A stretch of DNA of 54,405 nucleotides from an uncultured Bacilli bacterium (GCA_947628965.1 CANRBV010000004.1:1-54405); one strand, 5' to 3'; shown: positions 14,943-54,301, numbered from the stretch's first letter. The notes: generated by a model from the sequence alone, not told the origin. Program-made: numbers and translations.

Positions 14943-15917
14943 ATGGGAGATAAAAGAATCATAGATTCTTTATTAAAGGATTATCCAAATTTAAAATGCA
15001 ATTATGTTTATCGAAGAGAAGTACTTTTTGTCTCTCAAGTTTTATCATTAAAGTATTGGCAATATGAAAAATTTAAACCATTATTAACTTCTACAATATG
15101 GAAAAGTAACTATAATGAAATAAAGAAAATTCTTGAAATGAAAGAATGGGAAGAGGAAAAGTTTCAAAACCTATTAACCTCTAATATATGGGGGCGTAAT
15201 TGTGAAGAAGTAAAAAAGATCCTTGAAATGAAAAAGTGGCAAGAAAAAAAGTTTCAAGCCTTACTAACATCTTCAATATGGAGTTGTAATTATAATGAAA
15301 TAAAAAAGATTCTTGAAATGAAAGAATGGGAAGATAAAAAATTTCAAGTCCTATTAACTTCTAACATATGGAATAGTAACTATAGAGAAATAAAGAATAT
15401 CCTTAAAATGAAAGAATGGAAAGAAGAAAAGTTTCAACCGCTATTAACACCTAATCTATGGAGTAGTAATTGTCAAGAAATAAAAAAGATCCTTGAAATG
15501 AAAGAATGGAAAGAAGAAAAGTTTCAAGTCTTACTAACATCTTCCATATGGAGTTGTAATTATGAAGATATAAGGGAAAAATTAAATTTACCTTATTGGA
15601 ATAATTCTCTTTATAGGCATTTGTTAACTCCGACAATCTTTGTTATAAAAACTGATTATATTATCAAAAATATAGAAATTGCTGAAAAATATGGAATAGA
15701 AGGTTTTATTAAAATTTGCACATTAAGAAAAAATCCAATTGATTTTGAAAATTTAATTGTCTATTTACTAAAAAATCGTATCCCTCTCATTCTTGATAAT
15801 AAACTCAATCCTATTTTAAATGCCTTAACCTTACGATTAAAAAAAATCTATCAGATAGATTTAAAAAGTTTAAGAAAGGAAAATACTTATGTTCGAAGTA
15901 GAGGATGCTTTAAATAA
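14943..15917 (+). CDS. Tandem-repeat protein (30-aa units)
   Basis: About 6.5 copies of EIKKILEMKEWxEEKFQxLLTSxIWxxNxx. Confidence 0.85.
   Translation: MGDKRIIDSLLKDYPNLKCNYVYRREVLFVSQVLSLKYWQYEKFKPLLTSTIWKSNYNEIKKILEMKEWEEEKFQNLLTSNIWGRNCEEVKKILEMKKWQEKKFQALLTSSIWSCNYNEIKKILEMKEWEDKKFQVLLTSNIWNSNYREIKNILKMKEWKEEKFQPLLTPNLWSSNCQEIKKILEMKEWKEEKFQVLLTSSIWSCNYEDIREKLNLPYWNNSLYRHLLTPTIFVIKTDYIIKNIEIAEKYGIEGFIKICTLRKNPIDFENLIVYLLKNRIPLILDNKLNPILNALTLRLKKIYQIDLKSLRKENTYVRSRGCFK
15051..15640 (+). repeat. 90-bp coding tandem repeat
   Basis: Unit starts at 15111, 15201, 15291, 15381, 15471, 15561, plus an N-terminal partial unit. Confidence 0.95.
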
Positions 15918-22992: not shown

Positions 22993-24330
22993 ATGACATA
23001 TCAAGAAATGCAACAAATTTTATTAAAAATAAAAAAATACCACTTAACAAATTTATTTGCAAATAAAGATGCTTTATGTACTTGGCTTGGTAGTTTAAAC
23101 CCCAAACAAATTCAAAACTTTTTAAGTATTGATTTAGAAAAAATAAATTTAAATAAAACTAACTTTTTAATTGATTTAGATTTATTAAATACCGATTATT
23201 ATAAGCAAGGTGTGAAACTTATATTTAATGTCAAATCTGATAAAATAGCTGAATATTTATGCCGTGTTGCTACAGATTCTGATTCATTAGCAAGCAAACA
23301 TCATAGACAAGATATGAAATTAATAGCAAATACTAAATCAGATAAAATAGCGAAATGTTTAAGTCTTGTTGCCAAAAATCTAAAATCATTAGCCAGTGAA
23401 CATCATAGAGAAGATATGAAATTAATAGCTAACGCTAAATCAGATGAAGTAACTAAATATTTATGCTATGTTGCTACATATTCTAATTCATTAGCTAGTG
23501 AATATCATAGTGAAGATATGAAATTAATTGCAAACGCAAGAACAGGATATATAGCATATAATTTATATGAGGTTGCTATAAATGTACACTCGTTAGCAAG
23601 CAAACATCATAGAGAAGATATGAAATTAATAGCTAACGCTAAATCAGGTATTATTGCCGAATGTTTACGTTATGTTGTCACAAATTCAAGTGAACATTAT
23701 AGTGAAGATATGAATTTAATTGCTAACGTTAAAATAGCTGGAATAGCAGTATACTTAAGTATTGTTGCCATAGATCCAAATTCAATAGCAAACGAATATC
23801 ATAGTGAAGATATGAACTTAATTGCAAATGCAAAAACAGAGTATATAGCAGATTGTTTACATGAAGTTGCTATAAATGTATATTCATTATCAAGTGATTA
23901 TCACCAAGACGATATGCAATTAATTTCTAATGCGGTGTCTGATAAAATAGCAGCCTGTTTAAAGGATGTTGCTACATATTCTAATTCATTAGCAAGTGAA
24001 TATCATAATACTGATATGAACTTAATTGCTAATGCTAAAACAGCTCAAATAGCCGAATGCTTATGTATAGTTGCAAAAGATGCAAATTCATTAGCAAATG
24101 CATATCATAGGGAATGTATGGAACAAATTGCCAATGCTGAATCTTATGAAGAAGCAAGAAAATTGACAGAAGCTTTATGCCCATATATAAAGGAGAATTC
24201 TAATTTAGCTTCTACTTTAGAATTAAGTCTAGATCAAACAATTCTTCTTTCTCTTACAAAGTTAGAAGAAATAGAATGTATAGATCAAGAAATAGAAACG
24301 AATGAAATCGAAAGAATTTTAAAAATTTAG
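22993..24330 (+). CDS. Tandem-repeat protein (34-aa helical units)
   Basis: About 10 copies of SLASxxHxEDMxLIANAKxxxIAxxLxxVAxxxx. Confidence 0.88.
   Translation: MTYQEMQQILLKIKKYHLTNLFANKDALCTWLGSLNPKQIQNFLSIDLEKINLNKTNFLIDLDLLNTDYYKQGVKLIFNVKSDKIAEYLCRVATDSDSLASKHHRQDMKLIANTKSDKIAKCLSLVAKNLKSLASEHHREDMKLIANAKSDEVTKYLCYVATYSNSLASEYHSEDMKLIANARTGYIAYNLYEVAINVHSLASKHHREDMKLIANAKSGIIAECLRYVVTNSSEHYSEDMNLIANVKIAGIAVYLSIVAIDPNSIANEYHSEDMNLIANAKTEYIADCLHEVAINVYSLSSDYHQDDMQLISNAVSDKIAACLKDVATYSNSLASEYHNTDMNLIANAKTAQIAECLCIVAKDANSLANAYHRECMEQIANAESYEEARKLTEALCPYIKENSNLASTLELSLDQTILLSLTKLEEIECIDQEIETNEIERILKI
23182..24189 (+). repeat. 102-bp coding tandem repeat
   Basis: Unit starts at 23284, 23386, 23488, 23590, then 23782 (two units with a 12-bp deletion), 23884, 23986, 24088. 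Confidence 0.92.
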
Positions 24331-50065: not shown

Positions 50066-50184
50066 ATTTCTTTTTTTTAAAATTAAAATAAAAGAAAACT
50101 ACCCTAAGGAAATTGTTGGGAAATACTTGTGTTTTTTCTTTTTTTTTTTTATAATAATTTGTAGTAACATAGGAGTATAAAGGT

Positions 50185-51429
50185 ATGAGAAGAATATTAG
50201 CTAGTATGGACATTGGTTCTAATACAATAAAAATTATTGTAGCTGAAATAGTAAAAAGAAAAGTCAATATTTTAGCCGTTTCGGAAACAAATACTAAAGG
50301 ATTCAAAAATGGCCTTGTTGTTAATAAGGATACTTTTGTTTCGGCTTTAAAAGAAACATTAAAAAAAGCAGAAGATATTCTGGGTTTAAAGATCCAAAAG
50401 ATAATTATTACCGTTCCTTCTTTTCATACGAAATTTCTTATTAGTGAAGGAAGTACCACGATTACGAGTGAAGACAAAATAATAAAAGGTAACGATATTA
50501 TAAGAGCAATGCAAGCTTCCGTTTATAATAAAATACCAGAGAATTATGAAATTGTAGATGTTGTTCCAACCAAATTTATAGTTAATGAGCAAGAACCTGT
50601 TTTAAATCCATTGGATAGGACTGCTAATAAGTTGCATGTAAAAACATTAATTACTGTGATTCCAAAAGAAGAGATGATGCCTATTTTAGAATGCTTTTCT
50701 AAAATAGATGTTGAAGTAATAGGAACGAATTTAACTTCGGTAGGCGATTATTATGCTATAAAAAATGATAAAATGGATAACGATGTGGGAGCAATATTAA
50801 ATATTGGAAGTGAAAGTACAACCATTTCTATATTTAATAAAGGCATACTTGTGAATACTTCTGCAATCGAAATTGGTGGACAAAATATCGATAATGATAT
50901 ATCATTTATATATAAGGTAACGAAAAATGATGCTAAAAACATCAAAGAAACGTTAGGACTTGCCCATAAAAGACAGGCCTTAGCAAACAATACCACTGTC
51001 GTTACCAATAAATTAGGAGAAAGCATCACGATTAATCAATATGAGTTAAGTGAAATTATAATGAGTCGATTAGAAGAAATTCTAAATTTAGCAAGAAAAC
51101 AAATTAATTACTTAACAAAAAAGGAAATTCATTATATAATAGTAACGGGTGGCGTAAGTGAGACGGAAGATTTTGCCTTGACTCTTGAAAGTGTTTTTGG
51201 CAAAAGTGCTAAACTTGCTCTTATTCACGAAATTGGAGTACGAAATAATAAATATTCTGCCTGTTTAGGTATTCTTAAAAACTTTGATAATAAGTTGCGA
51301 TTGCGTGGAAATGCTTATTCTATATTTTCAATAGAAGAATTGGAAGAATTAAGTGGTAAACATAAAAAACTAAATATATCGGATAATTCGGTATTAGGAA
51401 AATTATTTGGATATTTTTTTGATAATTAA
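50185..51429 (+). CDS. ftsA: Cell division protein FtsA
   Basis: DIGSNTIK, NIGSEST, TGGVS; C-terminal amphipathic helix VLGKLFGYFFDN; upstream of ftsZ. Confidence 0.95.
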   Translation: MRRILASMDIGSNTIKIIVAEIVKRKVNILAVSETNTKGFKNGLVVNKDTFVSALKETLKKAEDILGLKIQKIIITVPSFHTKFLISEGSTTITSEDKIIKGNDIIRAMQASVYNKIPENYEIVDVVPTKFIVNEQEPVLNPLDRTANKLHVKTLITVIPKEEMMPILECFSKIDVEVIGTNLTSVGDYYAIKNDKMDNDVGAILNIGSESTTISIFNKGILVNTSAIEIGGQNIDNDISFIYKVTKNDAKNIKETLGLAHKRQALANNTTVVTNKLGESITINQYELSEIIMSRLEEILNLARKQINYLTKKEIHYIIVTGGVSETEDFALTLESVFGKSAKLALIHEIGVRNNKYSACLGILKNFDNKLRLRGNAYSIFSIEELEELSGKHKKLNISDNSVLGKLFGYFFDN

Positions 51430-51697
51430 GGAGAATGTATTATGGATGGAGATTAAATATAAAGAATAATTCGGTATTAGGAAAATTATTTGGATATTTT
51501 TTTGATAATTAAGGAGAATGTATTATGGATGGAGATTAAATATAAAGAATAATTCGGTATTAGGAAAATTATTTGGATATTTTTTGATAATTAAGGAGAA
51601 TGTATTATGGATGGAGATTAAATATAAAGAATAATTTGGTATTAGAAAAATTATTTGGATATTTTTTGATAATTAAGGAGAGTGTAACATGGACGGA
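51371..51697 (+). repeat. 83/82-bp tandem repeat (about 3.7 copies) of the ftsA 3' end, RBS and start codon
   Basis: ataatt(c/t)ggtatt anchors at 51383, 51466, 51549, 51631; T-run lengths 7,7,6,6; the last copy supplies the ftsZ ATG. Confidence 0.97.
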
Positions 51698-52774
51698 TTA
51701 GGAACAAATGGACTTAAATTAAATCCAATAGCAAAAATTAAAGTATTTGGTGTTGGTGGAGGCGGATGTAACGCTGTTAATCGAATGGTAGAAGAAGGAG
51801 TACAAGGTGTTGAATTTTATGTTGTGAATACAGATAAGCAAGTTTTAGATGATTCTAAAGCTGAACATAAAATTCAAATTGGAGAAAGTATTACAGGTGG
51901 ACGTGGAGCTGGATCAAATCCTGAAGTAGGTCGCGAAGCGGCATTAGAAAATAAAAGCGAAATTGAAAATGCGATTCGTGGTGCTGATATGGTTTTCATT
52001 GCTTGTGGTTTAGGTGGTGGTACTGGTACGGGTGCTGCGCCAGTTGTTGCAGAAATTGCCCAAGAATTAGGAGCTCTAACGGTTGGAATTGTAACAAAGC
52101 CTTTTCGTTTTGAAGGAACAACAAGAATGGAACATGCTTTAGTTGGTTTAGAAGAATTAAAAAAACATGTTGATACTTTAATCATTATTCCAAATGATCG
52201 ATTAAGAGAAATTATAGATAAAACAACAACTTTTGAAGATGCCTTTAAAGAAGTTGATAATGTCTTACATAGAGGAGTTCAATCTATTTCTGATTTAATA
52301 GCGGTAACAGGTTTAATTAACCTTGATTTTGCCGATGTAAAAACGGTTATGCAAAATTCAGGAACAGCTTTAATTGGTATTGGTATGGGTATTGGTGATA
52401 ATCGTGCAATTGATGCAGCAGAACAAGCCGTATCCAGTGCTCTTTTGGAAACGACCATTGAAGGTGCTACTGATGCGATTGTAAATGTTACAGGTGGATC
52501 CTCTTTAGGTATGTTCGAAGCAGAAGATGCCGTTGAAACTGTCCGTGCTGCTGCTGGAAATGATATTAATATTATTTTTGGAGCAATTAAAAATGAAAAT
52601 TTAACTGATGAAGTTATTGTAACTGTAATTGCAACTGGTTTTGATGGAGCTAAAAAAGATAGAGAAAATCGTGAGGAATTAAATTCACGTGAGCAAAAAA
52701 TGAAAAGAAGCATGGATGATGATGATTCTGAATACGATATTCCTCCATTTTTAAGAAATCACGATAATTTTTAA
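51689..52774 (+). CDS. ftsZ: Cell division protein FtsZ
   Basis: [31 protein letters not shown] tail. Confidence 0.99.
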
Positions 52775-52835: not shown

Positions 52836-53621
52836 ATGAAAGTCTATGTAGATATGGTTTTTCTTTTAAACTTTTACTTAGATTTTTTACTTTTAATGAC
52901 AACCTCTGTTACTTTAAAAAGAAATGTAACAATAAAAAGATTACTTTTAGGAACCCTAATAGGAAGTACTTCTATCTTTTTTCTCTTTTTTTCGATATCT
53001 TCCATTTTACTATTGTTTTTTAAATTTTTTATTGCTTTTTTTATGATAATTGCAACCTTTCATTTTAAAGATTTAAAATATACTTTAAATAATTTGAGTT
53101 ACTTTTACATGATTAGTGTAATTTTAGGGGGATTTTTATATTATTTAAATGTTGAATTTTCTTATTCCCATATAGGACTCGTTTTCTTTTCTAAAAAATT
53201 AAATGTAAATGGAGTGTTTTTACTCATAATTTCTCCAATTATTTTATATATCTATTATAGGCAGTCAAAAAAATTTAAATCAATGTATAACTTAATTTAT
53301 GATGTAAATATAATAATACAAAAACAGAAATGGCATTTAAAAGGATTTTTGGATACAGGAAATAAACTTGTAGATCCTATTACCAACAAGCCAATTATTT
53401 TACTTGAAAAAGGTGTAATAGAGGAAAAAAATTTGAAAGTTTATTATGTTCCTTATAATGGATTAGAAGAACATAAACTTTTAAAATGTTTTAAACCTAC
53501 TTCTGTAGAAATTGAAAAAAAGAAATTTAAAAATGTTCTTCTCGGTATAAGCGACAAAAAATTTCATTTAGATGGTGTAGAATGTTTATTAAATAATAAA
53601 ATAATGGAGGATTTATCATGA
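52836..53621 (+). CDS. spoIIGA: Pro-sigmaE processing aspartic protease
   Basis: VYVDMVFLLNF.LD, multiple TM helices, FLDTGN catalytic motif; precedes sigE. Confidence 0.95.
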   Translation: MKVYVDMVFLLNFYLDFLLLMTTSVTLKRNVTIKRLLLGTLIGSTSIFFLFFSISSILLLFFKFFIAFFMIIATFHFKDLKYTLNNLSYFYMISVILGGFLYYLNVEFSYSHIGLVFFSKKLNVNGVFLLIISPIILYIYYRQSKKFKSMYNLIYDVNIIIQKQKWHLKGFLDTGNKLVDPITNKPIILLEKGVIEEKNLKVYYVPYNGLEEHKLLKCFKPTSVEIEKKKFKNVLLGISDKKFHLDGVECLLNNKIMEDLS

Positions 53622-54301
53622 TAAAAAAATTATTATTGTGGTTAAAAATTAAATATGCGAATTGCTTTTTTGTGGGAAGTAGTGATAAGTTACCACCTCC
53701 ACTTAGTAAAGAAGAAGAACTTGCTTTATTAATACGTATGCAAGAAGGTGATGACCATGCAAGAGAACTATTAATTGAACATAATTTACGTTTAGTTGTA
53801 TTTCTAGCCAAAAAATATGAATCAAGTGGCTATGACATTGAAGATTTAGTGAGTATAGGGTCTATTGGATTAATAAAAGGAATTAATACTTACAAAATAG
53901 ATAAAAATATTAAATTAGCAACTTATGCATCCCGCTGTATTGCTAATGAAATTTTAATGTTTTTAAGAAAAAACAAACGAAGAAAAACGGAAATTTCTTT
54001 TGAAGATGCGCTAAATTATGATTCTGAAGGGAATGAACTGCATTTAGAAGATATTCTAGGAACGGATGAAGATATTGTTATAAAAGAATTTGAAAGTTCT
54101 ATGGATAAAAAAATGCTTGCGGATGAAATTAATAAATTAGATGAAAGAGATCGCCAAATCATGATATTAAGATACGGGTTAAACAATACGGAAGAATATA
54201 CGCAAAAAGAAGTAGCAGAAATGTTGGGAATTAGTCAATCTTATATTTCTAGAATTGAAAAAAAAGTTATTAAAAATTTAAAAAATTTATTAAAAATTTA
54301 A
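53618..54301 (+). CDS. sigE: Sporulation sigma factor SigE (pro-form)
   Basis: Pro-sequence then GSSDKLPPPL, LIEHNLRLVV, KLATYASRCI.NEILM, TQKEVA..LGISQSYISRIEK. Confidence 0.95.
   Translation: MIKKLLLWLKIKYANCFFVGSSDKLPPPLSKEEELALLIRMQEGDDHARELLIEHNLRLVVFLAKKYESSGYDIEDLVSIGSIGLIKGINTYKIDKNIKLATYASRCIANEILMFLRKNKRRKTEISFEDALNYDSEGNELHLEDILGTDEDIVIKEFESSMDKKMLADEINKLDERDRQIMILRYGLNNTEEYTQKEVAEMLGISQSYISRIEKKVIKNLKNLLKI

What the first reader, a model, noticed from the sequence alone, without database searches (positions are those of the whole stretch)
51371..51697. Tandem amplification of the ftsA/ftsZ junction creates three decoy MDGD-stop minigenes before ftsZ
Seen: an 83/82-bp unit (last ~19 ftsA codons, TAA, AAGGAG, 8 nt, ATG GAT GGA GAT TAA) occurs about 3.7 times. 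Copy 1 ends ftsA, and only copy 4 (AAGGAGAGTGTAAC ATG GAC GGA TTA) opens ftsZ. Copies differ (T7,T7,T6,T6, with substitutions in copy 4), which argues against a pure assembly echo. A second frame from ATG51435 encodes MYYGWRLNIKNNSVLGKLFGYFFDN, a free copy of the FtsA membrane-targeting helix, but with poor SD spacing. Known: the FtsA:FtsZ ratio is critical for division, and minigenes can sequester ribosomes and tRNA. Inference: a copy-number-variable rheostat for ftsZ translation.
Basis: partly seen in the sequence, partly recalled or inferred. Interest (0 to 1): 0.68.

Follow-up and report, generated by a model that had tools for sequence, protein, structure and literature searches.

The report
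Variable repeat at ftsA–ftsZ junction
In an uncultured rabbit-gut bacterium the 83-base junction between the cell-division genes ftsA and ftsZ is really present four times head-to-tail, and the copy number differs between samples, but it looks like a tolerated duplication scar and nothing shows that it tunes ftsZ.

Summary
Window 51371-51701 carries four head-to-tail units (83/83/82/83 bp). Each unit holds the ftsA tail, TAA overlapping AAGGAG, 8 nt and an ATG. Unit 1 ends ftsA, unit 4 opens ftsZ, and three ATG-GAT-GGA-GAT-TAA mini-ORFs lie between.

It is not an assembler echo. In four runs of the source sample, junction-specific 31-mer contigs stand at about 2.6x flank depth, and the T7 and T6 forms sum to about 4.0x. 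Two independent SPAdes contigs break inside the array and show the unit 1-2 and unit 3-4 joints. A second rabbit sample, holding a strain that differs by SNPs, gives an 83-bp cyclic unitig.

A third sample from another study holds the same species with a single unit and no junction words. All roughly 100 related species examined have a single 12-nt junction, including sisters with 97% and 95% FtsZ identity.

Best reading: a strain-variable tandem repeat (VNTR) made by tandem duplication of the gene junction, with the mini-ORFs as by-products. It lengthens the ftsA-ftsZ gap from 12 to 259 nt and adds three full-strength start sites. No promoter, terminator, Rfam family or accessibility change was found. 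The "rheostat" idea is untested. Similar junction duplications recur in other genomes.

The parts
50185..51429 (+). ftsA (414 aa). Its native C-terminal tail ...NSVLGKLFGYFFDN* lies in unit 1.
   Evidence: ORF. Pfam FtsA 2.5e-20 and SHS2_FTSA 7e-13. The tail is identical in type to 21 congeners.
51371..51453 (+). Unit 1 (83 nt, T7). Holds the last 19 ftsA codons, TAA 51427-29 overlapping SD 51428-33, and mini-ORF 1 at 51442-51456 (MDGD*).
   Evidence: The unit 1 to unit 2 joint is also in the independent SPAdes contig L033.
51454..51536 (+). Unit 2 (83 nt, T7). SD 51511-16, mini-ORF 2 at 51525-51539.
   Evidence: T7 contigs stand at about 2.5x flank depth in X1-X4.
51537..51618 (+). Unit 3 (82 nt, T6). 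SD 51593-98, mini-ORF 3 at 51607-51621.
   Evidence: The T6 contig (44 nt) and the T6-to-GGAGAA contig (40 nt) stand at about 1.5x and 1.1x flank depth.
51619..51701 (+). Unit 4 (T6). Carries its own variants T51637 and A51646, the genus-type GGAGAG plus a spacer of its own (TGTAAC), SD 51675-80 and the true ftsZ ATG at 51689.
   Evidence: The unit 3 to unit 4 joint with both variants is in the independent SPAdes contig L032. The variants are not in Logan contigs, probably because the bubble was popped.
51689..52774 (+). ftsZ (361 aa).
   Evidence: Pfam Tubulin 8.4e-53 and FtsZ_C 1.3e-25. 79-87% identical to congeners and 97% / 95% identical to the sister species L037 / L038.
51435..51512 (+). 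Alternative-frame 25-aa ORF ending in a copy of the FtsA tail. Sister ORFs lie at 51518-51634 (38 aa) and 51600-51701 (33 aa). Probably not expressed.
   Evidence: The ATG lies 1 nt after AAGGAG, and the T6 shift changes the later copies, so there is no coding constraint.
51112..51140 (+). Best promoter-like site near the array (TTAACA-17-TATAAT, 11 of 12), inside ftsA and outside the repeat. No promoter-like or terminator-like site lies in the array.
   Evidence: This is a consensus match only.

Best explanation
This is a real, strain-variable tandem repeat (VNTR). It arose when the ftsA-3'/SD/ftsZ-5' junction of this species was duplicated head-to-tail. The number of units then changed by slippage or unequal recombination.

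Shown:
- Unit 1 keeps the native ftsA end and unit 4 keeps the native ftsZ ribosome-binding site and start, so both essential genes stay intact.
- The three inner joints each carry a full copy of the genus-wide conserved ftsZ initiation region (AAGGAG, 8 nt, ATG), followed by a stop created at the joint itself. The MDGD mini-ORFs are therefore by-products.
- The ftsA-stop to ftsZ-ATG distance grows from 12 nt to 259 nt.

Inferred:
- The first duplication is old. The inner units have about 5 changes of their own, and unit 4 has about 4 substitutions of its own plus the T7-to-T6 loss that it shares with unit 3.
- Units 1-3 are kept alike by recent expansion or gene conversion.
- The single-unit strain is a collapse product.
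- ftsZ now depends on fresh initiation at unit 4 rather than on ribosomes handed over from ftsA. The net effect on FtsZ output is probably small, so the array is tolerated rather than purpose-built.
For: Anatomy.

Reality in the source sample (four runs, independent k=31 contigs):
- The left flank contig ends at 51412 and the right flank contig starts at 51652, exactly where unique words end.
- Flank depth is 10-13.
- The junction 81-mer stands at 35/19/37/32 (pooled 2.6x; 2.5x is expected for this structure).
- The T7 piece stands at 30/22/38/30 and the T6 piece at 20/10/21/20, which together give 4.0x.
- The T6-to-GGAGAA piece stands at 1.1x.

Other support for reality:
- Independent SPAdes contigs L033 and L032 stop inside the array and show the joints of units 1-2 and units 3-4.
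- Second sample S18 gives a 113-nt contig, which equals 83+30 and is therefore a cyclic unitig. Its depth is 6/8.7/4 against flanks of 3-5, and the strain differs by about 9 SNPs in 6.4 kb.

Variability:
- X5 comes from another study and holds the same species (39% of 1005 sampled words).
- One 215-nt contig of X5 runs from the unit-1 left end (TATCGG..CGG..AGG) through T6 into the unit-4 right end and ftsZ.
- X5 has no junction contigs.

Derived state:
- 21 congeners are single-copy.
- 0 of 30 other genus genomes match the doubled-junction pattern.
- The sister species L037 and L038 and 78 more species are single-copy.

By-product reading:
- The observed joint equals a blunt join of an L038-type ftsZ start to ftsA.
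- No promoter, terminator or Rfam family lies in the array.
- SD accessibility is the same in all units and in 1-unit against 4-unit RNA.
- The unit is not interspersed elsewhere in the genome.
Against: - The array seems to have persisted. Paralogous units differ by about 6-10%, yet all three inner SD+ATG sites are intact, and it occurs in at least two strains. That could hint at maintenance by selection, although homogenisation explains it equally well.
- The exact count of 4 rests on one contig plus k-mer depth. No read spans the array, and raw reads were not available.
- The single-unit call rests on one contig at depth 2.8.
- Unit-4 variants T51637 and A51646 are absent from Logan contigs of the source sample and were seen only in SPAdes assemblies.
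- No expression data exist.
Confidence: 0.7

Rival explanations
1. One reading: an adaptive rheostat. The three SD+ATG+stop units capture ribosomes, or uncouple ftsZ from ftsA, so that unit number, changed by slippage, sets the FtsZ:FtsA ratio.
For: - Copy number differs between samples: about 4, at least 2, and 1.
- Every inner unit keeps an intact AAGGAG-8 nt-ATG, identical in spacing to the true site.
- The initiation region that was copied is nearly invariant across the genus.
- The array has lasted long enough for units to diverge.
- Natural minigenes can alter translation of the next gene in cis (PMC8708949).
Against: - There are no expression data.
- There is no change in predicted accessibility.
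- About 100 related species manage with one 12-nt junction.
- Internal initiation in bacteria does not need scanning past upstream sites.
- The published minigene effect is positive, not sequestering.
- Identity of the inner units is what recent expansion or conversion gives without selection.
Confidence: 0.15
2. Assembly artefact: the assembler unrolled a one- or two-copy locus by threading strain variants (T6/T7, SNPs) into a false array.
For: - No single read or Logan contig spans more than about 1.4 units.
- The unit 2 to unit 3 order exists only in the window contig.
- Unit-4 variants are missing from Logan contigs.
- Congeners with similar ftsA tails are in the same sample (loose ends).
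Against: - Joint-specific words (GGAGAT|TAAATATAAAGAATAATT) cannot come from a single-copy locus. They stand at about 2.6x flank depth in four runs.
- They form a cyclic 83-bp unitig in a second sample.
- They occur in two other assemblies.
- Both T6-to-GGAGAA and T6-to-GGAGAG exist beside T7-to-GGAGAA, which needs at least 3 units in one haplotype.
Confidence: 0.04
3. The array encodes something of its own: a free FtsA-type amphipathic membrane peptide (the 25-aa ORF from 51435, reached by ribosomes re-starting 5 nt after the ftsA stop), or an RNA element.
For: - The ORF exists and ends in the exact FtsA tail NSVLGKLFGYFFDN.
- Its ATG was created by the inner-unit G-to-A change. All relatives have GGAGAG, and the inner units have GGAGAA.
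Against: - The ATG is 1 nt from the SD.
- The later copies of this frame are altered by the T6 shift and by S-to-L and G-to-E type changes, so there is no coding constraint.
- There is no Rfam match and no notable fold.
Confidence: 0.04

Closest known systems
Tandem duplication of gene junctions and actively expanding or contracting intergenic tandem repeats, for example Ehrlichia ruminantium (Collins et al. 2005 and Frutos et al. 2006, as cited in PMC10710844). Earlier notes of this scan describe the same thing at ptsH-ptsI, soxB-soxD, ftsI-murE, nrdR-nrdJ, rpsL-rpsG and lambda FII-Z.
   Same: The unit is the local gene junction itself (3' end of the upstream gene, spacer, 5' start of the downstream gene). 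The outer half-units keep both genes intact, and the inner joints leave spare start sites and tiny ORFs. Copy number differs between close strains, and relatives are single-copy.
   Different: This case hits the ftsA-ftsZ pair of essential division genes, in a small-genome gut Bacilli lineage. Only one such locus exists in the genome, so there is no genome-wide process.
MIRU-VNTR loci of mycobacteria (summarised in PMC12548453).
   Same: Units of 40-100 bp lie in tandem between co-oriented genes of an operon. Each carries a short ORF in the direction of the flanking genes, and copy number is strain-variable.
   Different: MIRUs are an interspersed, apparently mobile family, and their ORF overlaps the downstream start (-4 coupling). 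This unit is home-made, occurs at a single locus, and its last mini-ORF stops 67 nt before ftsZ, so there is no relay.
Natural and synthetic minigenes: the lambda bar type, which causes peptidyl-tRNA drop-off (from general knowledge; background in PMC2490762), and the axe-txe two-codon minigene (PMC8708949).
   Same: A strong SD, an ATG, a few codons and a stop lie upstream of a gene on the same mRNA.
   Different: Toxicity through tRNA sequestration is known only for over-expressed minigenes or Pth-deficient cells. The axe-txe minigene raises downstream expression in cis. Nothing was measured here.
Termination-reinitiation coupling at short intercistronic distances (review PMC12548453).
   Same: The ancestral junction, TAA overlapping the SD with 12 nt to the ATG, is invariant in the genus and is a classic coupling layout.
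   Different: In this strain the layout couples ftsA to mini-ORF 1 instead, and ftsZ sits 259 nt from the ftsA stop.

Membership tests
Bacterial VNTR / minisatellite | Head-to-tail units of about 10-100 bp with high identity | tested here: met
   TRF gives period 83, 4.0 copies and 95% matches. Units were read out.
Bacterial VNTR / minisatellite | Copy number differs between strains of one species | tested here: met
   About 4 units in sample S1, at least 2 in S18, and 1 in X5 with no junction words. Caveat: these are contigs only, and X5 stands at depth 2.8.
Gene-junction tandem duplication (slippage or illegitimate-recombination scar) | The unit is the 3' end of the upstream gene, plus the spacer, plus the 5' start of the downstream gene, and the outer halves stay native | tested here: met
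.
Gene-junction tandem duplication (slippage or illegitimate-recombination scar) | Relatives carry the unduplicated junction | tested here: met
   21 of 21 congeners, 0 of 30 other genus genomes with the doubled pattern, and 80 of 80 further species single-copy.
MIRU family | The same unit is interspersed at many loci of the genome | tested here: not met
   Only one match in the window's own genome. No other array of this unit appears in the genome-wide TRF run.
MIRU family | The unit ORF overlaps the stop or start of the flanking genes so that ribosomes are relayed | tested here: not met
   The mini-ORF stops (51454-56, 51537-39, 51619-21) lie 68, 67 and 67 nt upstream of the next ATG.
Minigene (bar-like or axe-txe-like) | SD at working distance, a start, at most about 6 codons, and a stop | tested here: met
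   AAGGAG, 8 nt, then ATG GAT GGA GAT TAA, three times.
Minigene (bar-like or axe-txe-like) | The mini-ORF is translated and changes expression of the next gene or the tRNA pools | not testable with these tools
   No RNA run holds the locus. It needs Ribo-seq or reporters.
Leader-peptide attenuator or structured RNA regulator | Conserved alternative RNA structures or a terminator linked to the short ORF | tested here: not met
   No terminator-like site, no Rfam match at E of 1 or below, and SD accessibility of 0.4-0.57 in all units.

The most novel reading that the evidence does not exclude
The array is a maintained, slippage-adjustable module at the heart of the division operon. Unit number would set how far ftsZ initiation is insulated from ftsA translation. 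The T7/T6 tract inside each unit would be a second switch. In the single-unit strain, T6 sits in the ftsA frame. It gives FtsA an altered membrane-anchor tail ([14 protein letters not shown], 422 aa) and makes ftsA overlap ftsZ by 13 nt. Together the two variables would let a small-genome gut bacterium vary FtsA anchoring and FtsZ:FtsA stoichiometry between lineages.
Probability: 0.08. Interest if true: 0.6.

Novelty: new member of a known kind. Interest (0 to 1): 0.3.

Why it matters
The array shows that even the tightly conserved ftsA-stop/SD/ftsZ-start junction tolerates insertion of about 250 nt with three full-strength spurious start sites. This junction is invariant in about 100 related species, yet the array persists in natural strains. 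That makes the locus a natural experiment on how much ftsA-ftsZ translational coupling matters. It is also a practical strain marker for this rabbit-gut lineage. For genome scanning, it is one more case where decoy starts before a gene are the footprint of a junction duplication rather than a designed regulator.

Tried and rejected
1. Selection against a free membrane-helix peptide. I first thought the joint needed a +GA insertion that killed an in-frame 22-aa MDGLNISDNSVLGKLFGYFFDN ORF. I dropped this after sister species L038 showed an ftsZ start ATGGACGGAG|TA and an ftsA ...AAA|ATTAAATATA. A blunt join of these gives the observed joint with no extra step.

2. A promoter in each unit, which would multiply ftsZ transcription. 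No site lies in the array.

3. An RNA structure or known RNA family. There is no Rfam hit, and accessibility is unchanged.

4. An interspersed repeat family. The unit occurs at this one locus only.

5. Other public assemblies with the joint. JGI metagenome contigs and GTDB species genomes gave 0 hits.

6. RNA-seq. No run was found.

7. The right flank of the array in sample S18. Coverage was too low to see it.

8. Literature on ftsA/ftsZ intergenic tandem repeats. Nothing relevant turned up.

Full report
**What is there**

The window comes from a 1.23-Mb, 57-contig, 28.6% G+C metagenome-assembled genome. It belongs to an uncultured Bacilli lineage of the rabbit gut (run labels; record titles of relatives).

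Gene order around the finding is lon, ftsA (50185-51429), ftsZ (51689-52774), spoIIGA, sigE-like sigma factor.

Between ftsA and ftsZ, TRF reports one array at 51371-51697, with period 83, 4.0 copies and 95% matches. Read out, the units are 83, 83, 82 and 83 nt. Each unit holds:
- the last about 19 ftsA codons;
- TAA overlapping AAGGAG;
- 8 nt;
- an ATG.

In units 1-3 the ATG is followed by GAT GGA GAT TAA. In unit 4 it opens ftsZ. Units 1 and 2 have a T7 tract and units 3 and 4 have T6. Unit 4 has 8 substitutions against units 2 and 3.

**Is it real?**

Only Logan contigs (k=31) were available, not raw reads. They are still informative.

In the four runs of the best-holding sample:
- The left flank contig ends at 51412 and the right flank contig starts at 51652. 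These are exactly the last and first positions with unit-specific words.
- Flank depth is 10-13.
- Short contigs lie between the flanks. The depths below are listed by run:

| Contig | Depth in the four runs | Pooled ratio to flanks |
|---|---|---|
| 81-mer across the joint | 35/19/37/32 | 2.6x (2.5x expected if unit 4 has its own variants) |
| T7 piece | 30/22/38/30 | 2.5x |
| T6 piece | 20/10/21/20 | 1.5x |
| T6-to-GGAGAA piece | 17/6/15/12 | 1.1x |

T7 plus T6 gives 4.0 units. The T7 value may be slightly inflated by congeners in the same sample that share the conserved ftsA tail (loose ends).

Three further lines of support:
- Two SPAdes contigs from other ENA assemblies stop inside the array. 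L033 runs from ftsA through unit 1 (T7) and the joint into unit 2 (T7). L032 starts in the T tract of unit 3 and runs through the joint into unit 4, with T51637 and A51646, and on into ftsZ.
- A second sample of the same study (S18) carries a strain with about 9 SNPs in 6.4 kb. It yields a 113-nt contig, which equals 83+30, the signature of a cyclic unitig from an 83-bp tandem repeat. Its depth is 6/8.7/4 against flanks of 3-5.
- Joint-specific words cannot arise from a single-copy locus.

An assembler echo is therefore very unlikely. What remains unproven is the exact count and the unit 2 to unit 3 order, which only the window contig shows.

**Is it variable?**

Run X5 comes from a different study. 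It holds the same species (39% of 1005 sampled words over 9.9 kb) at depth of about 2.8.

One 215-nt contig of X5 gave two consistent placements:
- On unit 4 it fits 51631-51839 with two other letters. Its last 6 letters do not fit.
- On unit 1 it fits 51377-51450 to its very end, with one T missing and 4 other letters. These are exactly the four unit-1/unit-4 differences in the SD-to-start stretch.

So the contig reads: native ftsA end (TATCGG..CGG..AGG), T6, GGAGAGTGTAAC, ATGGACGGATTAGG. That is one unit. X5 has no contig on the joints (depth 0 over 51472-51603). At two to three times the flank depth, joint contigs should have been assembled if present.

Copy number thus differs between samples: about 4, at least 2, and 1.

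**Where does it come from?**

All 21 congeners read have one junction...GGATATTTTTT(T/C)GATAATTAAGGAGAGTGTnnnATG. The stop overlaps the SD, with 12-13 nt from stop to ATG in nearly all of them (G010/L018 carries a 21-nt insert here). The last 15 nt of ftsA plus the SD are 98-100% conserved, even at third codon positions.

The wider survey agrees:
- A pattern for a doubled junction matches only the window's genome among 31 genus genomes.
- The two closest species, rabbit MAGs L037 and L038 with 97% and 95% FtsZ identity, are single-copy, as are 78 further species.
- The unit occurs nowhere else in the genome.
- The array is the only high-scoring tandem repeat in the genome whose period is not a multiple of three.

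The inner joint GGAG|ATTAAATATA equals a blunt join of an L038-type ftsZ start (ATGGACGGAG|TAGG) to ftsA (...AAA|ATTAAATATATCGG). The TAA that ends the mini-ORF is simply ftsA sequence read in another frame.

Using relatives as outgroups:
- The inner units keep the ancestral spacer TGTATT and T7.
- The inner units have their own changes: GGAGAG to GGAGAA, GAC to GAT, and TCGG to AAGA.
- Unit 4 has changed TGTATT to TGTAAC and carries two further substitutions. Read in the ftsA frame these would be S-to-L and G-to-E changes, which fits a lack of coding constraint in the non-coding copies.

The first duplication is therefore not recent, while units 1-3 have been homogenised or recently expanded.

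The single-unit strain carries unit 4's derived right half together with unit 1's left half and T6. One crossover or slippage event between units 1 and 4 would produce exactly this. I therefore infer that the single-unit strain is a collapse product. This inference rests on one low-depth contig.

**What it does**

Shown from sequence:
- Both genes stay intact.
- The ftsA-stop to ftsZ-ATG distance is 259 nt instead of 12.
- Three additional, identically spaced SD+ATG sites each end after four codons, 67-68 nt before the next ATG. This is too far for the stop/start relay seen in MIRUs (PMC12548453).

Not found:
- No promoter- or terminator-like sites in the array.
- No Rfam family.
- No difference in predicted SD/start accessibility among units, or between one-unit and four-unit RNAs.
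- No RNA run holds the locus.

My best reading (0.7) is a tolerated, strain-variable junction duplication whose mini-ORFs are by-products. Its likely consequence is that ribosomes leaving ftsA are handed to mini-ORF 1, and ftsZ relies on fresh initiation at unit 4.

The rheostat idea (0.15) is compatible with the variability and with the intact inner sites, but it has no direct support. The only natural minigene study I found reports a positive cis effect (PMC8708949), so even the sign of any effect is open.

The 25-aa frame from 51435 is unlikely to matter. Its ATG is 1 nt after the SD, and its later copies are broken by T6.

**Comparison and novelty**

Expanding and contracting intergenic tandem repeats are known, for example in Ehrlichia ruminantium (PMC10710844, citing Collins 2005 and Frutos 2006), as are MIRU-VNTRs.

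Earlier notes of this scan describe the same architecture at other gene junctions. Those are unchecked leads, and they agree with this reading.

This case is a new member of that kind. It is notable only for hitting the ftsA-ftsZ junction and for the odd T6 single-unit allele. That allele would give FtsA a different tail ([14 protein letters not shown], 422 aa) and a 13-nt overlap with ftsZ. Interest is modest.

Noticed in passing
Run X5 contig laid on window 51377-51450 and 51631-51839: The single-unit allele has T6 in the ftsA frame. FtsA would then end [14 protein letters not shown] (422 aa instead of 414), and its stop would lie 13 nt inside ftsZ. This could be a real variant of the membrane-anchor tail or a low-depth (2.8x) homopolymer error.
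   Followed up: partly
window 51112-51140 (+): A near-consensus sigma-70-type site (TTAACA-17-TATAAT, 11 of 12) lies inside the 3' part of ftsA, about 300 nt before its stop. It is a candidate internal promoter for ftsZ.
   Followed up: no
L018 (G010:C76), ftsA-ftsZ junction: One congener has a 21-nt insert with a second SD between the ftsA stop and ftsZ (GATAATTAAGGAGTAGAGATAAGGAGCGTGGATTATGG). This is another small rearrangement of the same junction.
   Followed up: no
window 52836-54301: spoIIGA (Peptidase_U4, 3e-49) and a sigE-like sigma factor follow ftsZ, as in spore-formers. This is unexpected in a 1.2-Mb genome that earlier notes of this scan call RF39-type Bacilli.
   Followed up: no
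window 50132-50150: A T-rich homopolymer-like tract (19 nt, 88% T) lies in the lon-ftsA spacer, just upstream of the ftsA start.
   Followed up: no
G000 contig C3:64168-64252 (outside the window): Three copies of GGAATTTTGTGA(A/T)A, spaced about 32 nt apart, lie just upstream of a gene start. They look like repeated operator sites.
   Followed up: no
window 15067-15573 and 23233-24109: Long in-frame tandem repeats (periods 90/180 and 102/204/294) lie in coding sequence. The second was already noted by another reader as 34-aa helical repeats.
   Followed up: no
Logan contigs of X1-X4 at window 51477-51512: The source sample also holds a congener with a single-copy junction (...AGGAGAGTGCAGAAATGAACGGTTTAGAAA). 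Words from the conserved ftsA tail are therefore shared between species and inflate depth there.
   Followed up: partly
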